A DNA stretch of 60,768 nt from a virus. The notes under the pieces are model-generated. The model did not search any database and was not told the origin of the DNA. It worked only from the letters and a program-made list of their open reading frames with translations. This document shows positions 29,676-50,403 of the stretch, in pieces (position 1 is the first letter of the stretch; each line of letters opens with the position of its first letter). Location of the stretch: the IMG/VR virus record IMGVR_UViG_3300045988_117276. One strand, given 5' to 3'. The translations under genes and the position numbers were made by a program.

Positions 29676-30161
29676 TCATTCCTCCTTTTTCTTTTCGTCC
29701 GATTCAAGCTTGGCATCCTTGTCAGCTGTATAAGGATATACATCCATGATAGCTGTTTCTACGACTGAGGGCACCTGATAGTCTGCCATTGTGCCTTTCA
29801 TGCCGGCATCAAGGTTCTTCTTCGCCCGTTCGAGGTCCGAAGCCTGTACCAACACATAGGTACTTGTTTTTTTCTCGGCTCCGCTCTTATCATCCAATGT
29901 GATGTAGCACAGTTTACATTTAAACCAGCGGTCGTCACACTCTGCGTCGCTGGGGAATATCTCGCTATAGTTGGCGCGTTTGATATCAGAGACGGTAAAC
30001 ACTCCGGAGATGAAGGGAGTCGTCTCTTCTATTATCCGTGCTTCCGCCTCCGTGAAGCTGAGAGCATCTACCAGATAAGGTTCAGTCACTTTTTTCTGCA
30101 TTCCGTTTTCAACGACTTTCTCGTAACGGATCTTACATTCAAACCATGTGTGCATTCCCAT
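29676..30161 (-). CDS. DUF4494-type protein, copy A
   Basis: MHTWFECKIRYEKVVENGMQKKVTEPYLVDALSFTEAEARI... About 75-80% identical to 35121..35564. Confidence 0.75.
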   Translation of the reverse strand: MGMHTWFECKIRYEKVVENGMQKKVTEPYLVDALSFTEAEARIIEETTPFISGVFTVSDIKRANYSEIFPSDAECDDRWFKCKLCYITLDDKSGAEKKTSTYVLVQASDLERAKKNLDAGMKGTMADYQVPSVVETAIMDVYPYTADKDAKLESDEKKKEE

Positions 30162-34136: not shown

Positions 34137-34468
34137 TTTGGAAATAGCCAGAATAGTTTTGAAATAACGTTTGATTTCTTCGGTTGAAGAAGATAATGAT
34201 AAGATGCACGTGTCGTGTGCAGACGTGAGTCTACAATTTACTATACTTCGATTGCTACTCAATTTCATTGGACTTGGCATGTGATGAAATTTGAGTTATT
34301 AAAATAAGAAAGGCTATCGCCTCACGAACCGCCAAGTCCAAGTTATTACATAATTGTAGTAACTCATGTGAGTGATAGCCCCTATATCTTGCAATATAAA
34401 CGCAAAGCATAGCCACAAAAATAGCTACTACAAATAATGTCTAATACATGAACTTGGCGTGTTCACCG

Positions 34469-34499
34469 CAAAGATACACTCAAATTTCAAAATACCAAA
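34469..34499 (-). promoter_or_regulatory. Promoter: -7 TATCTTTG (plus-strand caaagata 34469..34476) and -33 TTTG (34496..34499)
   Basis: TAnnTTTG match with a 19-nt spacer to TTTG. Confidence 0.45.
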
Positions 34500-34515
34500 T
34501 GAAAATCTTATTTTT

Positions 34516-34878
34516 TTAATCCAAAGTCCTAATCGTTATCTCCACACGTGGATTTTCCTTGTCTACAAACTTGCGTGCATGAATAAGACAACAATTATTG
34601 TCGTTCTTAATGCATTTGATTCGCTGAAGCACATCTAATTGTAGCTTTAATACATTATCAAGGTCGCTCCGTTTACTTGGGTAGTACACATCAATATAGA
34701 ACTCAAATGGCTCGTTGATATTCAAATCCCTCAACTTTCCTGCCTGCCAAATAAAGGATTCCTCATACTTTTTCAAGGAATGAGTTTTGGCTAGGCATCC
34801 GTGCCCGTTGATTGATACTATCTTATAGCAATTAGCCTTAGAAGGAGCGTTCCCTTTGATTATTGTCTTATATTCCAT
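34516..34878 (-). CDS. rusA: RusA-like Holliday-junction resolvase
   Basis: YIDVYYPSKRSDLDNVLKLQLDVLQ carries the D-x-DN catalytic region. Start set at MEYKTIIKG; the longer track ORF runs into the tRNA-like element. Confidence 0.7.
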   Translation of the reverse strand: MEYKTIIKGNAPSKANCYKIVSINGHGCLAKTHSLKKYEESFIWQAGKLRDLNINEPFEFYIDVYYPSKRSDLDNVLKLQLDVLQRIKCIKNDNNCCLIHARKFVDKENPRVEITIRTLD

Positions 34879-34920
34879 ACTATCGTCTGGCATTCTTGTT
34901 TGGTGATTGTTATTTTCATG

Positions 34921-35064
34921 TGGAGACGGGGCGATTCGAACACCCAATCAAGGACTAAATCCTTTTGCGCTACTTCCAAGGTTAATTACTCCTTATATCT
35001 CACGTACCGTACTTTCTAACATGTGCACCTCTCGAAAGTCAAAAGCACTCCACTGCGCATCTCC
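34921..35064 (-). ncRNA. Non-canonical tRNA-like RNA no. 1 (144 nt)
   Basis: 7-bp acceptor stem GGAGATG/CGTCTCC. T arm GGGTG-TTCGAAT-CGCCC. A73 discriminator. 19-nt D region. A 5-bp stem begins at canonical position 27 but closes a 17-nt loop containing GUGCAC. The variable region is about 66 nt. Confidence 0.5.
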
Positions 35065-35120
35065 ATGTTCGCCCGCCAATCTTCACAGACAAGCAGGCTG
35101 GGGTAAAAAGGTTAACAAAG

Positions 35121-35564
35121 CTATTCCTTTGCTTCATAAGGATATACATCCATAATAGGCGTTTCAGACACAGATGCTATTTGATAATCTGCCATCGTCC
35201 CCTTCATGCCTTCGTCTAGCTTCTTGACAGCATCTCTTAAATTGGAAGCCTGAACAAGTACATGAGTAGATGTTTTCTTTTCAGCACCGCTTTTTTCATC
35301 AAGCGTGATAAATACCAATTTGCATTTAAACCAGCGATCAGCCGATTCTTCTTCAGAAAAGAATATCTCCGAATAATTAGCTCTCTTTATATCAGAAACT
35401 GTAAACTCCCCACTGATAAAGGGTGTCATTTCTTCAATACATTTACCTTCACTCTCTGTGAAAGACAGAGCATCAAACAAATAAGGTTCTGTAACCTTTT
35501 TCTGCATTCCATTTTCCGCTACTTTCTCATAACGGATTTTCACTTCAAACCATGTGTGCATCAT
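35121..35564 (-). CDS. DUF4494-type protein, copy B
   Basis: MMHTWFEVKIRYEKVAENGMQKKVTEPYLFDALSFTESEGK... Paralogue of 29676..30161. Confidence 0.75.
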   Translation of the reverse strand: MMHTWFEVKIRYEKVAENGMQKKVTEPYLFDALSFTESEGKCIEEMTPFISGEFTVSDIKRANYSEIFFSEEESADRWFKCKLVFITLDEKSGAEKKTSTHVLVQASNLRDAVKKLDEGMKGTMADYQIASVSETPIMDVYPYEAKE

Positions 35565-35576
35565 AAATAACTATTT

Positions 35577-36011
35577 TTATACAAATTCTTTGTTTCTTCC
35601 AACTTCAATTTCCATCAGTTGTATTAGTCGTTCCTCGTTTGGGGCAGGGAGATATACAGAAAAAGCTTCATTCATTACAGACCAATTTCTCCATCTTTCT
35701 ATAGATAGCGACATTTCTCTCGTGTCAAGCTCGTAAGTATGCCTTATGTATCTCACTTTCTCACCGGCTATTTCTTTATCTACAAAATAAATGTCCTTGT
35801 TTATTTCCTTATATATTGACTCTGCTTCATCATTTGTATATCCTGTTTGCGTAGCCCAGTATCCAATAAGAAGCCATAAATAAGAATTTTGATTCAGGCT
35901 TCTTTTAGGCTTCTTTTCTGTTAATTCTACTATTTTCCCGTTTTTAACAAGCAAAGCGGAACGAGATTTAAACTGTTCCGCTTGTAATGGATTAGAAAGA
36001 TCGTACAACAT
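35577..36011 (-). CDS. NinB/Orf-family recombination mediator
   Basis: KRSLNQNSYLWLLIGYWA matches the RSLDQNRKLWACLGD motif of lambda NinB. Similar length (144 aa). Confidence 0.6.
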   Translation of the reverse strand: MLYDLSNPLQAEQFKSRSALLVKNGKIVELTEKKPKRSLNQNSYLWLLIGYWATQTGYTNDEAESIYKEINKDIYFVDKEIAGEKVRYIRHTYELDTREMSLSIERWRNWSVMNEAFSVYLPAPNEERLIQLMEIEVGRNKEFV

Positions 36012-39861: not shown

Positions 39862-40070
39862 GTTTGCCTGTATCACTTTAGATACAGGGCTTTACATTGA
39901 AATACAACAGATATCAATATTCTCACGAACGACGATATCTCCTTAAAGTATATTTTTATTATTTTCATTTTTCCATTTAAAAAGGGATGCACTATCTTCA
40001 CAGACAATACACCCCGAACACACAAACACAAAATAAAAACACGACAAAACAAAAAGTTTTAAGTAGCTAA

Positions 40071-40232
40071 TTACTCTTCTCTCTCTAGTCTCTTTTTGTT
40101 TTTCTCTATGCACACTTGACACAATGCAAATGCGACAAAAGAAAGCCAAAAAACAACATTAAATTCATTTGCGAACAATATCGTCATGGCAAGAGATATT
40201 ATCCAAATAATAAATAATGGTATACGTTTCAT
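40071..40232 (-). CDS. Possible small membrane protein (53 aa, below the track cutoff)
   Basis: Own translation: MKRIPLFIIWIISLAMTILFANEFNVVFWLSFVAFALCQVCIEKNKKRLEREE. Two hydrophobic helices. Confidence 0.4.
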   Translation of the reverse strand: MKRIPLFIIWIISLAMTILFANEFNVVFWLSFVAFALCQVCIEKNKKRLEREE

Positions 40233-49744: not shown

Positions 49745-49938
49745 ACTCTATCCCCCAAAAGAGTTACATTTGTTATGATAACCGGCCTTCTACTTTACCG
49801 GATAACTTAGTGCTTAATAATCAATTAATGTCTCATTTTGTCCTCCTTTCTTAATAAACCTTTTTCCAATGGAAATTGTTATATAAATACAACTTAAACT
49901 TTTCATACCGGAAACGGTCTGTGAAGATAGTGCCGGTA

Positions 49939-50403
49939 TTACCACATAAATAAATTATAACTTACTCCACCACCGACATACAATCCACCGGGATAGCCGT
50001 ATCCAAATTGCAGGCCAAGGCCCCAGCGTTTTTGCTTCGGTTTAAGAGTGATGATTTCCTTTTCTCCGTAGACTTCCATAAAGTCAAGGCTGGGCTTATA
50101 ACCGCTAACTATTGCACGGTAATTATCAGTCTTATACTCCTTGATTGTAATCGGTATAATCACCGGAACCGAGTCGCCTTCTACGGTTCTGTCGGTAGTG
50201 GTATCTACTATTATCGGTAAATACACCGTATCGGTACGCTTTAAGGTCTCCTTTACCGGCATAAGCACGATGTCAACTATAGTGTCCCTTACTCTTATCG
50301 TATCTCCCTTTACATAGACAGTCGAAGGATCGTGCGGATTACAACGCATCCACACGACCACGCATACAAGCAGGCAGACTAATATCCAAGGGAGAGATTT
50401 CAT
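49939..50403 (-). CDS. Signal-anchored protein with a beta-barrel-like aromatic C-terminus (possible spanin/lysis accessory)
   Basis: N-terminal LPWILVCLLVCVVVW. The C-terminus reads GLGLQFGYGYPGGLYVGGGVSYNLFMW. Confidence 0.45.
   Translation of the reverse strand: MKSLPWILVCLLVCVVVWMRCNPHDPSTVYVKGDTIRVRDTIVDIVLMPVKETLKRTDTVYLPIIVDTTTDRTVEGDSVPVIIPITIKEYKTDNYRAIVSGYKPSLDFMEVYGEKEIITLKPKQKRWGLGLQFGYGYPGGLYVGGGVSYNLFMW

What the first reader, a model, noticed from the sequence alone, without database searches (positions are those of the whole stretch)
34921..35064. tRNA-like RNA no. 1: canonical acceptor and T arms, but a 17-nt GUGCAC loop and a ~66-nt variable region
The minus strand 35064->34921 reads GGAGATG-(19 nt)-CTTTC[GAGAGGTGCACATGTTA]GAAAG-(66 nt)-GGGTG-TTCGAAT-CGCCC-CGTCTCC-A.

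tRNA-like features:
- The 3' 25 nt are a textbook T arm (G53, TTCGAAT, C61) plus the acceptor 3' strand and A73.
- GGAGATG pairs with CGTCTCC (7 bp, one G.U).
- Positions 8-26 span 19 nt, as in real tRNAs.
- A 5-bp stem begins exactly at canonical position 27.

Departures from a tRNA:
- That stem closes a 17-nt loop, not 7, carrying the self-complementary hexamer GUGCAC.
- Two AAGGA...CCTT hairpins fill a giant variable region.

The element sits in sense orientation in the 240-nt gap between the DUF4494 gene and rusA. No 7-nt anticodon loop can be drawn, so it is unlikely to decode. Possible roles are an RNase P/Z processing 'punctuation' site in the early polycistron, a decoy for tRNA-targeting defence nucleases, a primer, or a relic attP.
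Basis: seen in the sequence. Interest (0 to 1): 0.75.

Follow-up and report, generated by a model that had tools for sequence, protein, structure and literature searches.

The report
Anticodon-less tRNA-like RNA gene in phage
A gut Bacteroides phage carries a conserved 144-nt gene for an RNA that has the top half of a tRNA but no usable anticodon. It is one of at least 17 interchangeable tRNA-like "cassettes" found behind the same promoter-proximal hairpin in related phages, and their function is unknown.

Summary
On the minus strand, 35064->34921 has a 7-bp acceptor stem, a canonical T arm and A73. It also has a 5-bp stem at position 27 closing a 17-nt loop, and two AAGG..CCTT hairpins. A strict tRNA top-half scan finds exactly two such elements in the window; simulated windows average 0.003. 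ARAGORN and Rfam do not call it.

It is not an att or tRNA fragment: no tRNA in 185,579 species genomes ends with its 3' 21-mer. It is not coding, because variants carry 1-nt indels.

The same RNA occurs in about 126 IMG/VR contigs as 18 variants. Stem substitutions are mostly G.U-compatible on this strand only.

The slot is polymorphic. Related phages hold at least 17 unrelated tRNA-like cores (68-160 nt) between the same flanks. Two of them pass Rfam's tRNA threshold as tRNAs with large inserts.

Every core follows a Bacteroides-type -7 box (TAnnTTTG) and a hairpin with a conserved GUCUGUGAAGAU loop.

Best reading: a tRNA-derived, non-decoding stable RNA with its own promoter. It is probably matured like a tRNA and acts as a tRNA-shaped scaffold or decoy; that function is inferred. 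The GUGCAC palindrome is not conserved and not significant.

The parts
35116..35123 (-). TAGCTTTG, a match to the Bacteroides sigma-ABfr -7 promoter box TAnnTTTG. It overlaps the DUF4494 stop codon.
   Evidence: Read. TAnnTTTG lies upstream of the leader hairpin in 44 of 94 distinct contexts (background 2.7%), at fixed distances. TTTG is present in 87 of 94 (background 19%). The consensus itself is from established knowledge. Function is inferred.
35072..35102 (-). 5' leader hairpin: stem CCC(A)GCC / GGCGGG, with an 18-nt loop carrying the conserved motif GUCUGUGAAGAU (35090-35079).
   Evidence: The motif occurs 3 times exactly in the window; shuffles, scored with one mismatch allowed, average 0.79. 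The stem sequence differs between contigs while pairing is kept: GCCTGTCC/GGGCGGGC in L071 and CCCCGC/GCGGGG in L074. The loop is conserved.
35065..35071 (-). 7-nt spacer CGAACAU between the hairpin and +1 of the tRNA-like RNA. U at -1 marks the presumed RNase P site.
   Evidence: All slot-1 alleles start 50-52 nt after the start of the extracted segment, which is anchored 25 nt before the loop motif. That places them directly after this spacer. RNase P cleavage is inferred, not shown.
34921..35064 (-). tRNA-like RNA, 'type A' allele, 144 nt. Acceptor 5' strand 35064-35058. D-like hairpin GCA-GUGGAG-UGC 35056-35045. Stem CUUUC/GAAAG 35038-35034 and 35016-35012 with a 17-nt loop at 35033-35017. 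Hairpin 1 at 34994-34978. Hairpin 2 at 34964-34950. T arm 34945-34929. Acceptor 3' strand 34928-34922. A73 at 34921.
   Evidence: significance of the top half; 18 variants in about 126 contigs, 97% column identity, stem changes mostly G.U-compatible; pair counts.
34516..34893 (-). rusA (Holliday-junction resolvase), immediately downstream. No terminator lies between it and the RNA, so in this phage it is probably co-transcribed.
   Evidence: No terminator-like site in 34400-35700.
35121..35564 (-). DUF4494 gene immediately upstream. It is context only, not a constant neighbour of the cassette.
   Evidence: Other contigs have a different upstream gene.

Best explanation
This is a real phage gene for a tRNA-derived RNA that does not decode.

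Proposed pathway:
1. Transcription starts at a Bacteroides-type promoter (the -7 box TAGCTTTG) that overlaps the end of the DUF4494 gene.
2. The transcript begins with a hairpin whose loop reads GUCUGUGAAGAU. Seven nucleotides later the tRNA-like body begins.
3. The body keeps the parts that tRNA-processing enzymes recognise: a 7-bp acceptor stem, a canonical T arm, a D-like hairpin with GG, and A73.
4. I therefore infer the usual maturation. RNase P cuts at G+1, the 3' end is trimmed after A73, and CCA is added. The product would be a stable L-shaped RNA.
5. The anticodon arm is replaced by a 5-bp stem with a 17-nt loop, and the variable region by two hairpins. The RNA cannot read a codon.

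Proposed function: a tRNA-shaped scaffold or mimic. The top half gives stability and access to tRNA-binding host factors. The non-tRNA lower half is the specific payload, either a decoy or a ligand for a host or phage factor.

Related phages carry at least 17 unrelated cores between the same flanks. The locus therefore behaves as an exchangeable cassette, as expected for a host-interaction or counter-defence function.

Shown: the sequence anatomy, conservation, cassette polymorphism, promoter-box enrichment, and the exclusion of coding, att-fragment and true-tRNA readings.
Inferred: transcription, processing, stability, and the scaffold/decoy function.
For: - The canonical top half is far above chance: 2 sites in the window against a simulated mean of 0.003.
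- The element occurs in about 126 IMG/VR contigs as 18 variants at about 97% identity, in several different gene contexts.
- Stem substitutions are mostly one-sided and pairing-compatible on this strand only: A3-U/G3.U, A5-U/G5.U, U6.G/U6-A, and G-C/G.U in the T stem. Only 9 of 522 cells are unpaired.
- Variants carry 1-nt indels in both hairpin loops, which rules out coding on either strand.
- Across 18 allele types at the leader-hairpin slots, the acceptor and T stems are 97.2% paired. Nine of 12 pairs show double-sided changes, and 0 of 500 shuffles reach the observed pairing percentage or covariation score.
- Rfam's tRNA model scores two sister alleles above its gathering score, as tRNAs with large inserts: L048 36.5 bits and L135 48.3 bits.
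- In the type D allele the insert helices are kept by compensatory changes. At least some payloads are therefore under structural selection.
- The -7 box is enriched upstream of the leader hairpin: 44 of 94 contexts against a 2.7% background.
- Many alleles are followed by a conserved trailer and an intrinsic terminator, which makes them self-contained transcription units.
- tRNA scaffolds are known to stabilise inserted RNAs in vivo (PMC3753655).
- T4 makes tRNA-region small RNAs, RNAC and RNAD, of unknown role (PMC3014915).
Against: - There are no expression, processing or binding data.
- Within type A there is no double-sided compensatory change. The interior fold is not more stable than shuffles, z = -1.35. 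The type A payload structure therefore rests on weak evidence.
- The cross-allele covariation test uses elements that my scan selected for pairing, an ascertainment bias. It is mitigated because their 5' ends are fixed by the conserved leader.
- No motif is shared among payloads.
- No antisense target exists in the phage genome.
- No tRNA-related enzyme or RNA-binding partner was found among the 40 window ORFs I searched, which is not all of them.
- A3-U70 and G3.U70 variants coexist, so no single aminoacylation identity is evident.
Confidence: 0.55

Rival explanations
1. Processing handle or punctuation. The tRNA-like body serves only as an RNase P / RNase Z recognition module. Cleavage would release the conserved 5' hairpin RNA with a defined 3' end. 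In this phage it would also separate the rusA mRNA from upstream RNA. The lower half would be free to drift.
For: - Only the RNase P-relevant top half is common to all alleles, while the lower halves range from a tetraloop to inserts of more than 100 nt.
- The leader loop is the most conserved sequence across all alleles.
- Leader hairpins that lack a tRNA-like partner often carry a T-run instead, 28 of 94 contexts. That is another way to end an RNA just after the hairpin.
- No terminator separates the element from rusA in the window.
Against: - The type A core is more conserved (93-100% identity) than the leader stem, which differs by substitutions and indels between the same contigs.
- The type D insert keeps its helices by compensatory change.
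- Most alleles have their own terminator, so mRNA punctuation cannot be the general role.
- A handle would not need to be enlarged to 144-230 nt.
Confidence: 0.2
2. A decaying tRNA pseudogene: a former phage tRNA whose anticodon and variable region were disrupted, now without function.
For: - tRNA finders do not call it.
- The interior fold is not significant.
- There is no compensatory covariation within type A.
- Distant rusA-bearing phages have a true tRNA-Met in the same position (L092, L094).
Against: - The element is kept at about 97% identity in about 126 contigs across different gene contexts.
- Substitutions avoid breaking stems.
- It retains a promoter box and leader.
- At least 17 independent anticodon-less alleles all retain intact acceptor and T arms.
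Confidence: 0.1
3. A miniature tmRNA-like or peptide-encoding RNA. Positions 37-72 read GUG CAC AUG UUA GAA AGU ACG GUA CGU GAG AUA UAA, and the tRNA-like domain would deliver it to ribosomes.
For: - The six variable sites in this stretch fall at codon positions 3,3,1,1,1,3, with none at position 2.
- They give only synonymous or conservative changes: VHM(L/V/I)EST(V/I)R(E/K)I*. The stop codon is invariant.
- Most variants have G3.U70.
- There is a weak tmRNA hit, driven by the T arm and acceptor.
Against: - Six sites are too few. P(no position-2 change) is about 0.09.
- The window variant, and 25 or more contigs, have A3-U70, which lacks the AlaRS identity element.
- The tmRNA score is 7.5 bits against a gathering score of 47. 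ARAGORN's default run, which also scans for tmRNA, finds nothing.
- There are no pseudoknots.
- Other alleles have no comparable ORF.
Confidence: 0.05
4. A true tRNA interrupted by an intron that is spliced out to give a decoding tRNA.
For: ARAGORN's intron mode calls several sister alleles as intron-containing tRNAs. Rfam's tRNA model accepts two of them with large inserts.
Against: - For this element, ARAGORN's intron mode finds nothing at default stringency.
- Homologous sister alleles receive contradictory anticodons: L048 Lys-CUU against L161 Cys-GCA.
- The inserts are far too short for group I introns, the only tRNA introns known in bacteria (established knowledge). No intron family is hit in Rfam.
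- No removable segment leaves a 7-nt loop with U33 and a purine at 37.
Confidence: 0.03
5. An attP core or a fragment of a host tRNA/tmRNA gene left by integration.
For: The 3' 25 nt look like the end of a tRNA or tmRNA. The Rfam tmRNA and tmRNA_permuted alignments are driven by this part.
Against: - GTTCGAATCGCYCCRTCTCCA occurs only 3 times in one genome each of 185,579 species. The hits are in unrelated taxa, and none lies in a tRNA gene.
- Both acceptor strands and a D-like arm are present.
- The element sits in the replication/recombination module, with no integrase found among the ORFs searched.
Confidence: 0.02

Closest known systems
Canonical tRNA genes of phages (Rfam RF00005)
   Same: 7-bp acceptor stem, T arm with G53-TTCGAAT-C61, A73, 19 nt between positions 8 and 26, a stem starting at position 27, and the location in a phage early/replication module. 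Sister alleles at the same locus pass the Rfam tRNA threshold.
   Different: No 7-nt anticodon loop (17 nt instead), a 66-nt 'variable region' with two hairpins, and only a 3-bp D stem. Neither ARAGORN nor Rfam calls it.
Phage T4 small stable RNAs RNAC/RNAD (species 1 and 2), encoded in the tRNA gene cluster
   Same: Phage-encoded small RNAs longer than a tRNA, made from a tRNA region, with no known function (PMC3014915). From my own knowledge, not tested here: they are tRNA-like at their termini and are processed with the tRNAs.
   Different: Different phage lineage and host, and no sequence relation was tested. The element here has its own promoter-proximal hairpin leader and belongs to a hypervariable cassette locus.
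tmRNA tRNA-like domain (RF00023)
   Same: Acceptor stem plus T arm with no anticodon arm, and a non-tRNA domain inserted between the two halves. The best, though insignificant, Rfam hit is tmRNA.
   Different: 7.5 bits against a gathering score of 47. A3-U70 in the window variant, no pseudoknots, no credible tag ORF, and 144 nt rather than about 350-400 nt.
Engineered tRNA scaffolds (Ponchon and Dardel; PMC3753655), and tRNA-like modules of murine gammaherpesvirus 68 TMER transcripts (the latter from my own knowledge)
   Same: A tRNA body used as a stabilising and processing chassis for an unrelated RNA payload placed in or next to the anticodon arm.
   Different: The first is synthetic and the second belongs to a eukaryotic virus. 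No natural bacterial or phage counterpart with swappable payloads is known to me.
Bacteroides sRNA BTnc201 (Rfam RF04177); relevant to the leader hairpin only
   Same: The family consensus contains a hairpin loop guCuGUGAaGau, identical to the leader-loop motif, and a G/U-rich tract like that preceding the hairpin of the window's second tRNA-like RNA.
   Different: Only 16.9 bits against a gathering score of 105, and that hit is at the second element's leader, not this one. No hit at 34700-35300.

Membership tests
tRNA (RF00005 / ARAGORN) | 7-bp acceptor stem with a discriminator base | tested here: met
   GGAGAUG/CGUCUCC plus A73. Pairing is kept in 18 variants apart from 5 of 126 acceptor-stem cells.
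tRNA (RF00005 / ARAGORN) | T arm: 5-bp stem and 7-nt loop with T54-T55-C56-R57-A58, G53-C61 | tested here: met
   GGGUG-UUCGAAU-CGCCC. The strict scan is significant.
tRNA (RF00005 / ARAGORN) | D arm with conserved G18 G19 | tested here: inconclusive
   Only a 3-bp hairpin, GCA-GUGGAG-UGC, with GG in the loop and no 8-9 linker of normal form. Its loop positions vary (13, 14, 16) while the stem is invariant.
tRNA (RF00005 / ARAGORN) | 5-bp anticodon stem closing a 7-nt loop with U33 and a purine at 37 | tested here: not met
   The loop is 17 nt. The alternative 7-nt loop in hairpin 2 is 6 nt in the commonest variant.
tRNA (RF00005 / ARAGORN) | Score above detection thresholds | tested here: not met
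   ARAGORN finds 0 genes, also with -i. Rfam finds no hit at gathering. At E<=10 only tmRNA-type matches appear for this element: tmRNA at 7.5 bits and tmRNA_permuted at 10.3 bits.
tmRNA (RF00023) | G3.U70 alanine identity pair | tested here: not met
   The window has A3-U70. G3.U70 is present in other variants only.
tmRNA (RF00023) | Tag reading frame with a resume codon, flanked by pseudoknots, and a model score above threshold | tested here: not met
   7.5 bits against 47. ARAGORN's default run, which also scans for tmRNA, finds none. Relaxed thresholds give only noise.
attP / tRNA-gene fragment | Identity of the 3' part to the 3' end of a host tRNA or tmRNA gene | tested here: not met
   The 21-mer scan of GTDB representative genomes gave 3 chance hits, none a tRNA.
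Intron-containing bacterial tRNA | Group I intron in the anticodon loop, with exons that restore a canonical tRNA | tested here: not met
   No intron family in Rfam. ARAGORN -i finds none. The insert is too short.
YrlA / Y-RNA-like tRNA mimics | Match to the Rfam Y RNA-like models; a Ro-binding helix formed by the termini | tested here: not met
   No Rfam hit at gathering or at E<=10. Here the termini form an acceptor stem.
Phage tRNA-like stable RNAs (T4 RNAC/RNAD type) | A discrete stable RNA processed by RNase P with CCA at the 3' end | not testable with these tools
   Needs RNA-seq, Northern blots and in vitro RNase P assays.

The most novel reading that the evidence does not exclude
Gut Bacteroides phages may carry a natural 'tRNA-scaffold cassette' system. 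It would consist of a fixed promoter, a 5' hairpin and a tRNA top half, displaying an exchangeable structured payload.

At least 17 payload alleles exist, including a tRNA nested inside a tRNA. They would be shuffled between phages by recombination at the conserved flanks.

Each payload would act as a decoy or inhibitor for a different tRNA-directed host factor, such as a defence tRNase or a modification or processing enzyme. Allele choice would then help set host range.
Probability: 0.2. Interest if true: 0.85.

Novelty: new variant of a known kind. Interest (0 to 1): 0.62.

Why it matters
Phage tRNAs are usually explained by codon usage or, more recently, by escape from tRNA-cleaving defences. 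This is instead a widespread set of phage RNAs that keep only the enzyme-recognition half of a tRNA and replace the decoding half with diverse structured inserts.

The RNAs are expressed from a common promoter/hairpin module and are swapped between otherwise similar phages of abundant gut Bacteroidales.

If the RNAs are stable and bind host factors, they would be a new class of phage-host interaction determinants. They would also be a natural precedent for the tRNA scaffolds used in RNA engineering.

The finding also flags a blind spot. None of these genes is annotated in public phage records, and standard tRNA finders miss most of them.

Tried and rejected
- **Kissing-loop or palindrome idea.** Several alleles seemed to share GUGCAC, UGCGCA or UGUACA in enlarged loops. 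An unbiased k-mer test across 18 allele interiors found nothing beyond shuffles (TGCGCA in 4 of 18; shuffles reach this 63% of the time). GUGCAC is GUACAC in L150. Rejected as unsupported.
- **Ochre-suppressor reading.** Hairpin 2 can be drawn as an AUUUAGU loop with anticodon UUA. Rejected because the loop length and sequence vary.
- **Protein-coding ORF on the plus strand (34907-35155, 82 aa, TTG start).** Rejected because of 1-nt indels among variants.
- **MFE long-range fold (17-21/94-98, 26-31/88-93, 34-38/83-87).** Disfavoured. Pair 31:88 is broken in 16 of 18 variants and 27:92 in 3 of 18.
- **HDV-like/theta ribozyme next to the tRNA.** In the published family the ribozyme cleavage site lies within 5 nt of the associated tRNA (PMC10879173). 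The window has no such trailer, and Rfam gave no ribozyme hit in the window or in 12 related loci.
- **Antisense target search within the phage genome.** Only chance-level matches of 13 nt or less.
- **Partner protein.** PHROGs and Pfam on 40 window ORFs found no tRNA enzyme, RNA ligase, reverse transcriptase or integrase. A single-sequence AlphaFold model of DUF4494 was too poor to use (pLDDT 48). No PDB relative was found.
- **Annotated relatives.** No cultured or annotated phage in INPHARED carries this or sister alleles. The cultured relatives BKO1-TP3 and BS-TP4 have DUF4494 directly followed by a VRR-NUC gene.
- **Literature.** Searches found no description of the hairpin motif or of this RNA family. 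A catalogue of IMG/VR candidate structured RNAs mentions tRNA-like candidates in general (PMC10690425). I could not test whether this one is included.

Full report
**1. The observation**

- Acceptor: GGAGAUG (35064-35058) pairs with CGUCUCC (34928-34922).
- Nineteen nucleotides lie between positions 8 and 26.
- The 5-bp stem CUUUC/GAAAG starts at position 27 and closes the 17-nt loop GAGAGGUGCACAUGUUA.
- A 66-nt stretch holds two AAGG..CCUU hairpins.
- The T arm is GGGUG-UUCGAAU-CGCCC, followed by A73 at 34921.

The flanking genes are DUF4494 (Pfam E=7e-64) and RusA (E=2.6e-10).

ARAGORN finds no tRNA or tmRNA in the whole window, with or without intron mode. Rfam gives nothing at gathering thresholds. 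At E<=10 the only match on this strand that spans the element is tmRNA at 7.5 bits, driven by the T arm and acceptor.

I scanned for a strict tRNA top half: G53, a TTCRA loop, C61, a 5-bp T stem and an adjoining 7-bp acceptor. The scan finds exactly two sites in the window, this one and a second at 39861-39782. Three hundred simulated windows gave a mean of 0.003. The top half is therefore not chance.

The interior is not thermodynamically special, with z = -1.35. A palindromic hexamer is expected by chance about twice in 144 nt.

**2. Conservation**

The 3' 25-mer and an internal 16-mer retrieve the same element from IMG/VR.

There are 18 distinct variants in about 126 contigs, with about 97% column identity.

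The upstream gene differs between contigs, and in many contigs the element lies about 900 nt from rusA with other genes in between. The element therefore travels as its own module.

Variable sites fall mainly in loops. In stems the changes are A-U/G.U, U.G/U-A or G-C/G.U, which are compatible only on this strand. Nine of 522 cells are unpaired.

One-nucleotide indels in both hairpin loops exclude a protein-coding explanation on either strand.

There is no double-sided compensatory change inside this allele. Its interior fold is supported only in a weaker sense.

GUGCAC is GUACAC in one variant.

**3. The locus is a polymorphic tRNA-like cassette**

I took 80 IMG/VR loci encoding RusA relatives and read what lies upstream.

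The flanks are conserved. On the 5' side: ..CTTTGTTAACC.., then a hairpin with loop GTCTGTGAAGAT, then ..CGAACAT. On the 3' side: CACAT(A/G)AA..

Between these flanks lie quite unrelated cores. My clustering gives at least 17 types of 68-160 nt, and some are longer.

All types have a complementary 7-bp acceptor, a T arm and usually A73. Their sequences differ: GGGACAA/UUGUCCC, GGGGCGU/ACGCCCC, GGUGGUA/UACCACC, GGGCGGU/ACCGUCC and others.

On a concatenated alignment of the termini of 18 types, 97.2% of cells pair. Nine of 12 pairs show double-sided changes, and 0 of 500 shuffles reach the observed pairing percentage or covariation score. One caveat applies: the elements were found by a scan that demands pairing. 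However, their 5' ends are fixed independently by the conserved leader.

Default ARAGORN calls none of the slot-1 alleles. In intron mode it calls several, but it gives contradictory anticodons to homologous alleles.

Rfam's tRNA model passes two alleles as tRNAs with large inserts: L048 at 36.5 bits and L135 at 48.3 bits.

Several alleles have an unmistakable tRNA-Leu-like D arm (GCGGAAUUGGUAGACGC). One allele contains a second, permuted tRNA-like body inside its anticodon arm.

For the Leu-like type D allele, three sequences already show compensatory changes in the insert helices. Distant RusA-bearing phages have a true tRNA-Met at this position.

The family is therefore tRNA-derived. It has lost decoding, and at least some lower halves are under structural selection.

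**4. Expression signals**

The leader-loop motif occurs three times in the window: 35090-35079 (minus), 40005-39994 (minus) and 49917-49928 (plus). Shuffles, scored with one mismatch allowed, average 0.79.

Across 94 distinct contexts in the fetched loci, TTTG lies just upstream in 87 (background 19%). The full Bacteroides -7 box TAnnTTTG is present in 44 (background 2.7%), at fixed distances.

In the window the box is TAGCTTTG (35123-35116), overlapping the DUF4494 stop codon.

The hairpin stems differ in sequence between contigs while pairing is kept, and the loop is constant.

Many alleles are followed by a conserved trailer and a strong intrinsic terminator. The window allele lacks both and runs straight into rusA, with no terminator.

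**5. What it is not**

- **An att or tRNA fragment.** The 3' 21-mer, degenerate at the two variable sites, occurs three times in one genome each of 185,579 species. All hits are in unrelated taxa and none lies in a tRNA.
- **An intron-containing tRNA.** There are no intron hits, and no excisable segment restores a 7-nt loop.
- **A tmRNA.** The window variant has A3-U70, the score is 7.5 bits against 47, and there are no pseudoknots.
- **A suppressor tRNA.** The only drawable 7-nt loop varies in length.

No antisense target exists in the phage genome. No loop motif is shared among alleles beyond chance.

**6. Mechanism**

The best-supported reading is a stable, non-decoding tRNA mimic. It would be transcribed from its own promoter, carry a 5' hairpin leader, be cut by RNase P at G+1 (U at -1), be trimmed after A73, and receive CCA. 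These steps are inferred from the retained recognition elements.

The cassette-like replacement of the lower half, against constant flanks, suggests that the lower half is a specific payload displayed on a tRNA chassis. This is analogous to engineered tRNA scaffolds (PMC3753655).

I rate the identity (a tRNA-derived ncRNA gene) at about 0.8. The scaffold/decoy function is lower, about 0.35-0.4 of the total, which gives 0.55 for the combined statement as worded.

The main rival is that the body is only an RNase P/Z handle that defines the 3' end of the conserved leader hairpin RNA and punctuates the rusA message (0.2). The pseudogene, mini-tmRNA/peptide, spliced-tRNA and att readings are less likely.

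**7. Comparison and novelty**

The nearest precedents are phage T4's RNAC and RNAD, small RNAs from the tRNA cluster with unknown roles (PMC3014915), and the tRNA-like domain of tmRNA.

No Rfam family, annotated phage record or paper in the searchable library describes this RNA, its sister alleles or the leader hairpin. A large catalogue of candidate structured RNAs in IMG/VR notes tRNA-like candidates in general (PMC10690425).

I class it as a new variant of a known kind: phage tRNA-like stable RNAs. Its unusual features are the cassette polymorphism, the common promoter/hairpin module and the enlarged lower halves.

Noticed in passing
window 39861-39782 (- strand): A second tRNA-like RNA, 80 nt: GGGCAGU..ACUGUCC-A with G3.U70, a complete cloverleaf, and a 17-nt 'anticodon' loop UGAAGUGCAUCAAUAAU. 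Its D region UCUCGUGGCUGAAAC resembles the tmRNA D-loop analogue. The best Rfam hit is tRNA-Sec at 23.3 bits, below the gathering score of 47. ARAGORN does not call it. Sister alleles at this second slot (L007, L074) also have G3.U70.
   Followed up: partly
window 35102-35072 (-), 40020-39985 (-), 49905-49940 (+); many loci (e.g. L135, L136, L158, L177 have 2-3 copies): A promoter-proximal hairpin with a variable, covarying stem and a conserved loop GUCYGUGARGAU. It is preceded by TAnnTTTG/TTTG and followed in about 30% of contexts by a T-run. It precedes tRNA-like genes and sometimes protein genes. The same loop sequence appears in the consensus of the Bacteroides sRNA family BTnc201 (RF04177; weak hit of 16.9 bits at 39976-40072). 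It may be a 5' stabiliser, an attenuator or an antitermination (put/nut-like) element.
   Followed up: partly
window 39940-39865 (- strand): Two further hairpins lie between the leader hairpin and the second tRNA-like RNA. One has the loop GUCGUUCGUGAGAAUAUU, a degenerate copy of the leader-loop motif. The other is GCCCUGUAUC-UAAAGU-GAUACAGGC.
   Followed up: no
window 49905-49955 (+ strand): A leader-type hairpin (AUACCGG..CCGGUAU with the GUCUGUGAAGAU loop) lies antisense to the local minus-strand genes. It is followed directly by ACCACATAAAT, the sequence that normally follows the 3' end of the tRNA-like cores. It looks like an 'empty' cassette.
   Followed up: no
L111, L135 (3626-3757), L181: An allele with two T arms. 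The outer tRNA has a canonical D arm, acceptor and T arm. Its anticodon arm encloses a circularly permuted tRNA-like body: a T arm, a loop-capped acceptor-like stem and a D arm. Rfam's tRNA model scores it 48.3 bits with a 61-nt insert.
   Followed up: partly
L030, L032, L036, L071, L073 and others, directly 3' of the tRNA-like cores: A conserved trailer, CACATAAATGTGAGCCACACATAAATGG.., carries a direct repeat of CACATAAATG. It is followed by the intrinsic terminator GCCCCGGAGAATACGCTTCGGGGCTTTT. The trailer is absent from the window, where the core joins the rusA 5' UTR at CACATGAAAAT.
   Followed up: no
window 35028-34993 (- strand; RNA positions 37-72): A mini-ORF, GUG CAC AUG UUA GAA AGU ACG GUA CGU GAG AUA UAA, lies inside the tRNA-like RNA. 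All six variable sites among 18 variants are at codon positions 1 or 3 and give synonymous or conservative changes, and the stop codon is invariant. There are too few sites for significance.
   Followed up: partly
window 29676-30161 and 35121-35564 (- strand): The phage has two DUF4494 paralogues, both matching phrog_19572 (E about 1e-70). The function is unknown. One sits directly upstream of the tRNA-like cassette here.
   Followed up: no
L128 9197-9245 (- strand): A DUF2693-FD RNA (RF02926, 75.2 bits) occurs in a related phage contig that also carries the type A tRNA-like RNA. There is none in the window.
   Followed up: no
L092 1375-1445, L094 1380-1449: Distant RusA-encoding phages have a genuine tRNA-Met(CAT) about 55 nt upstream of rusA. 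This suggests the slot originally held ordinary tRNA genes.
   Followed up: no
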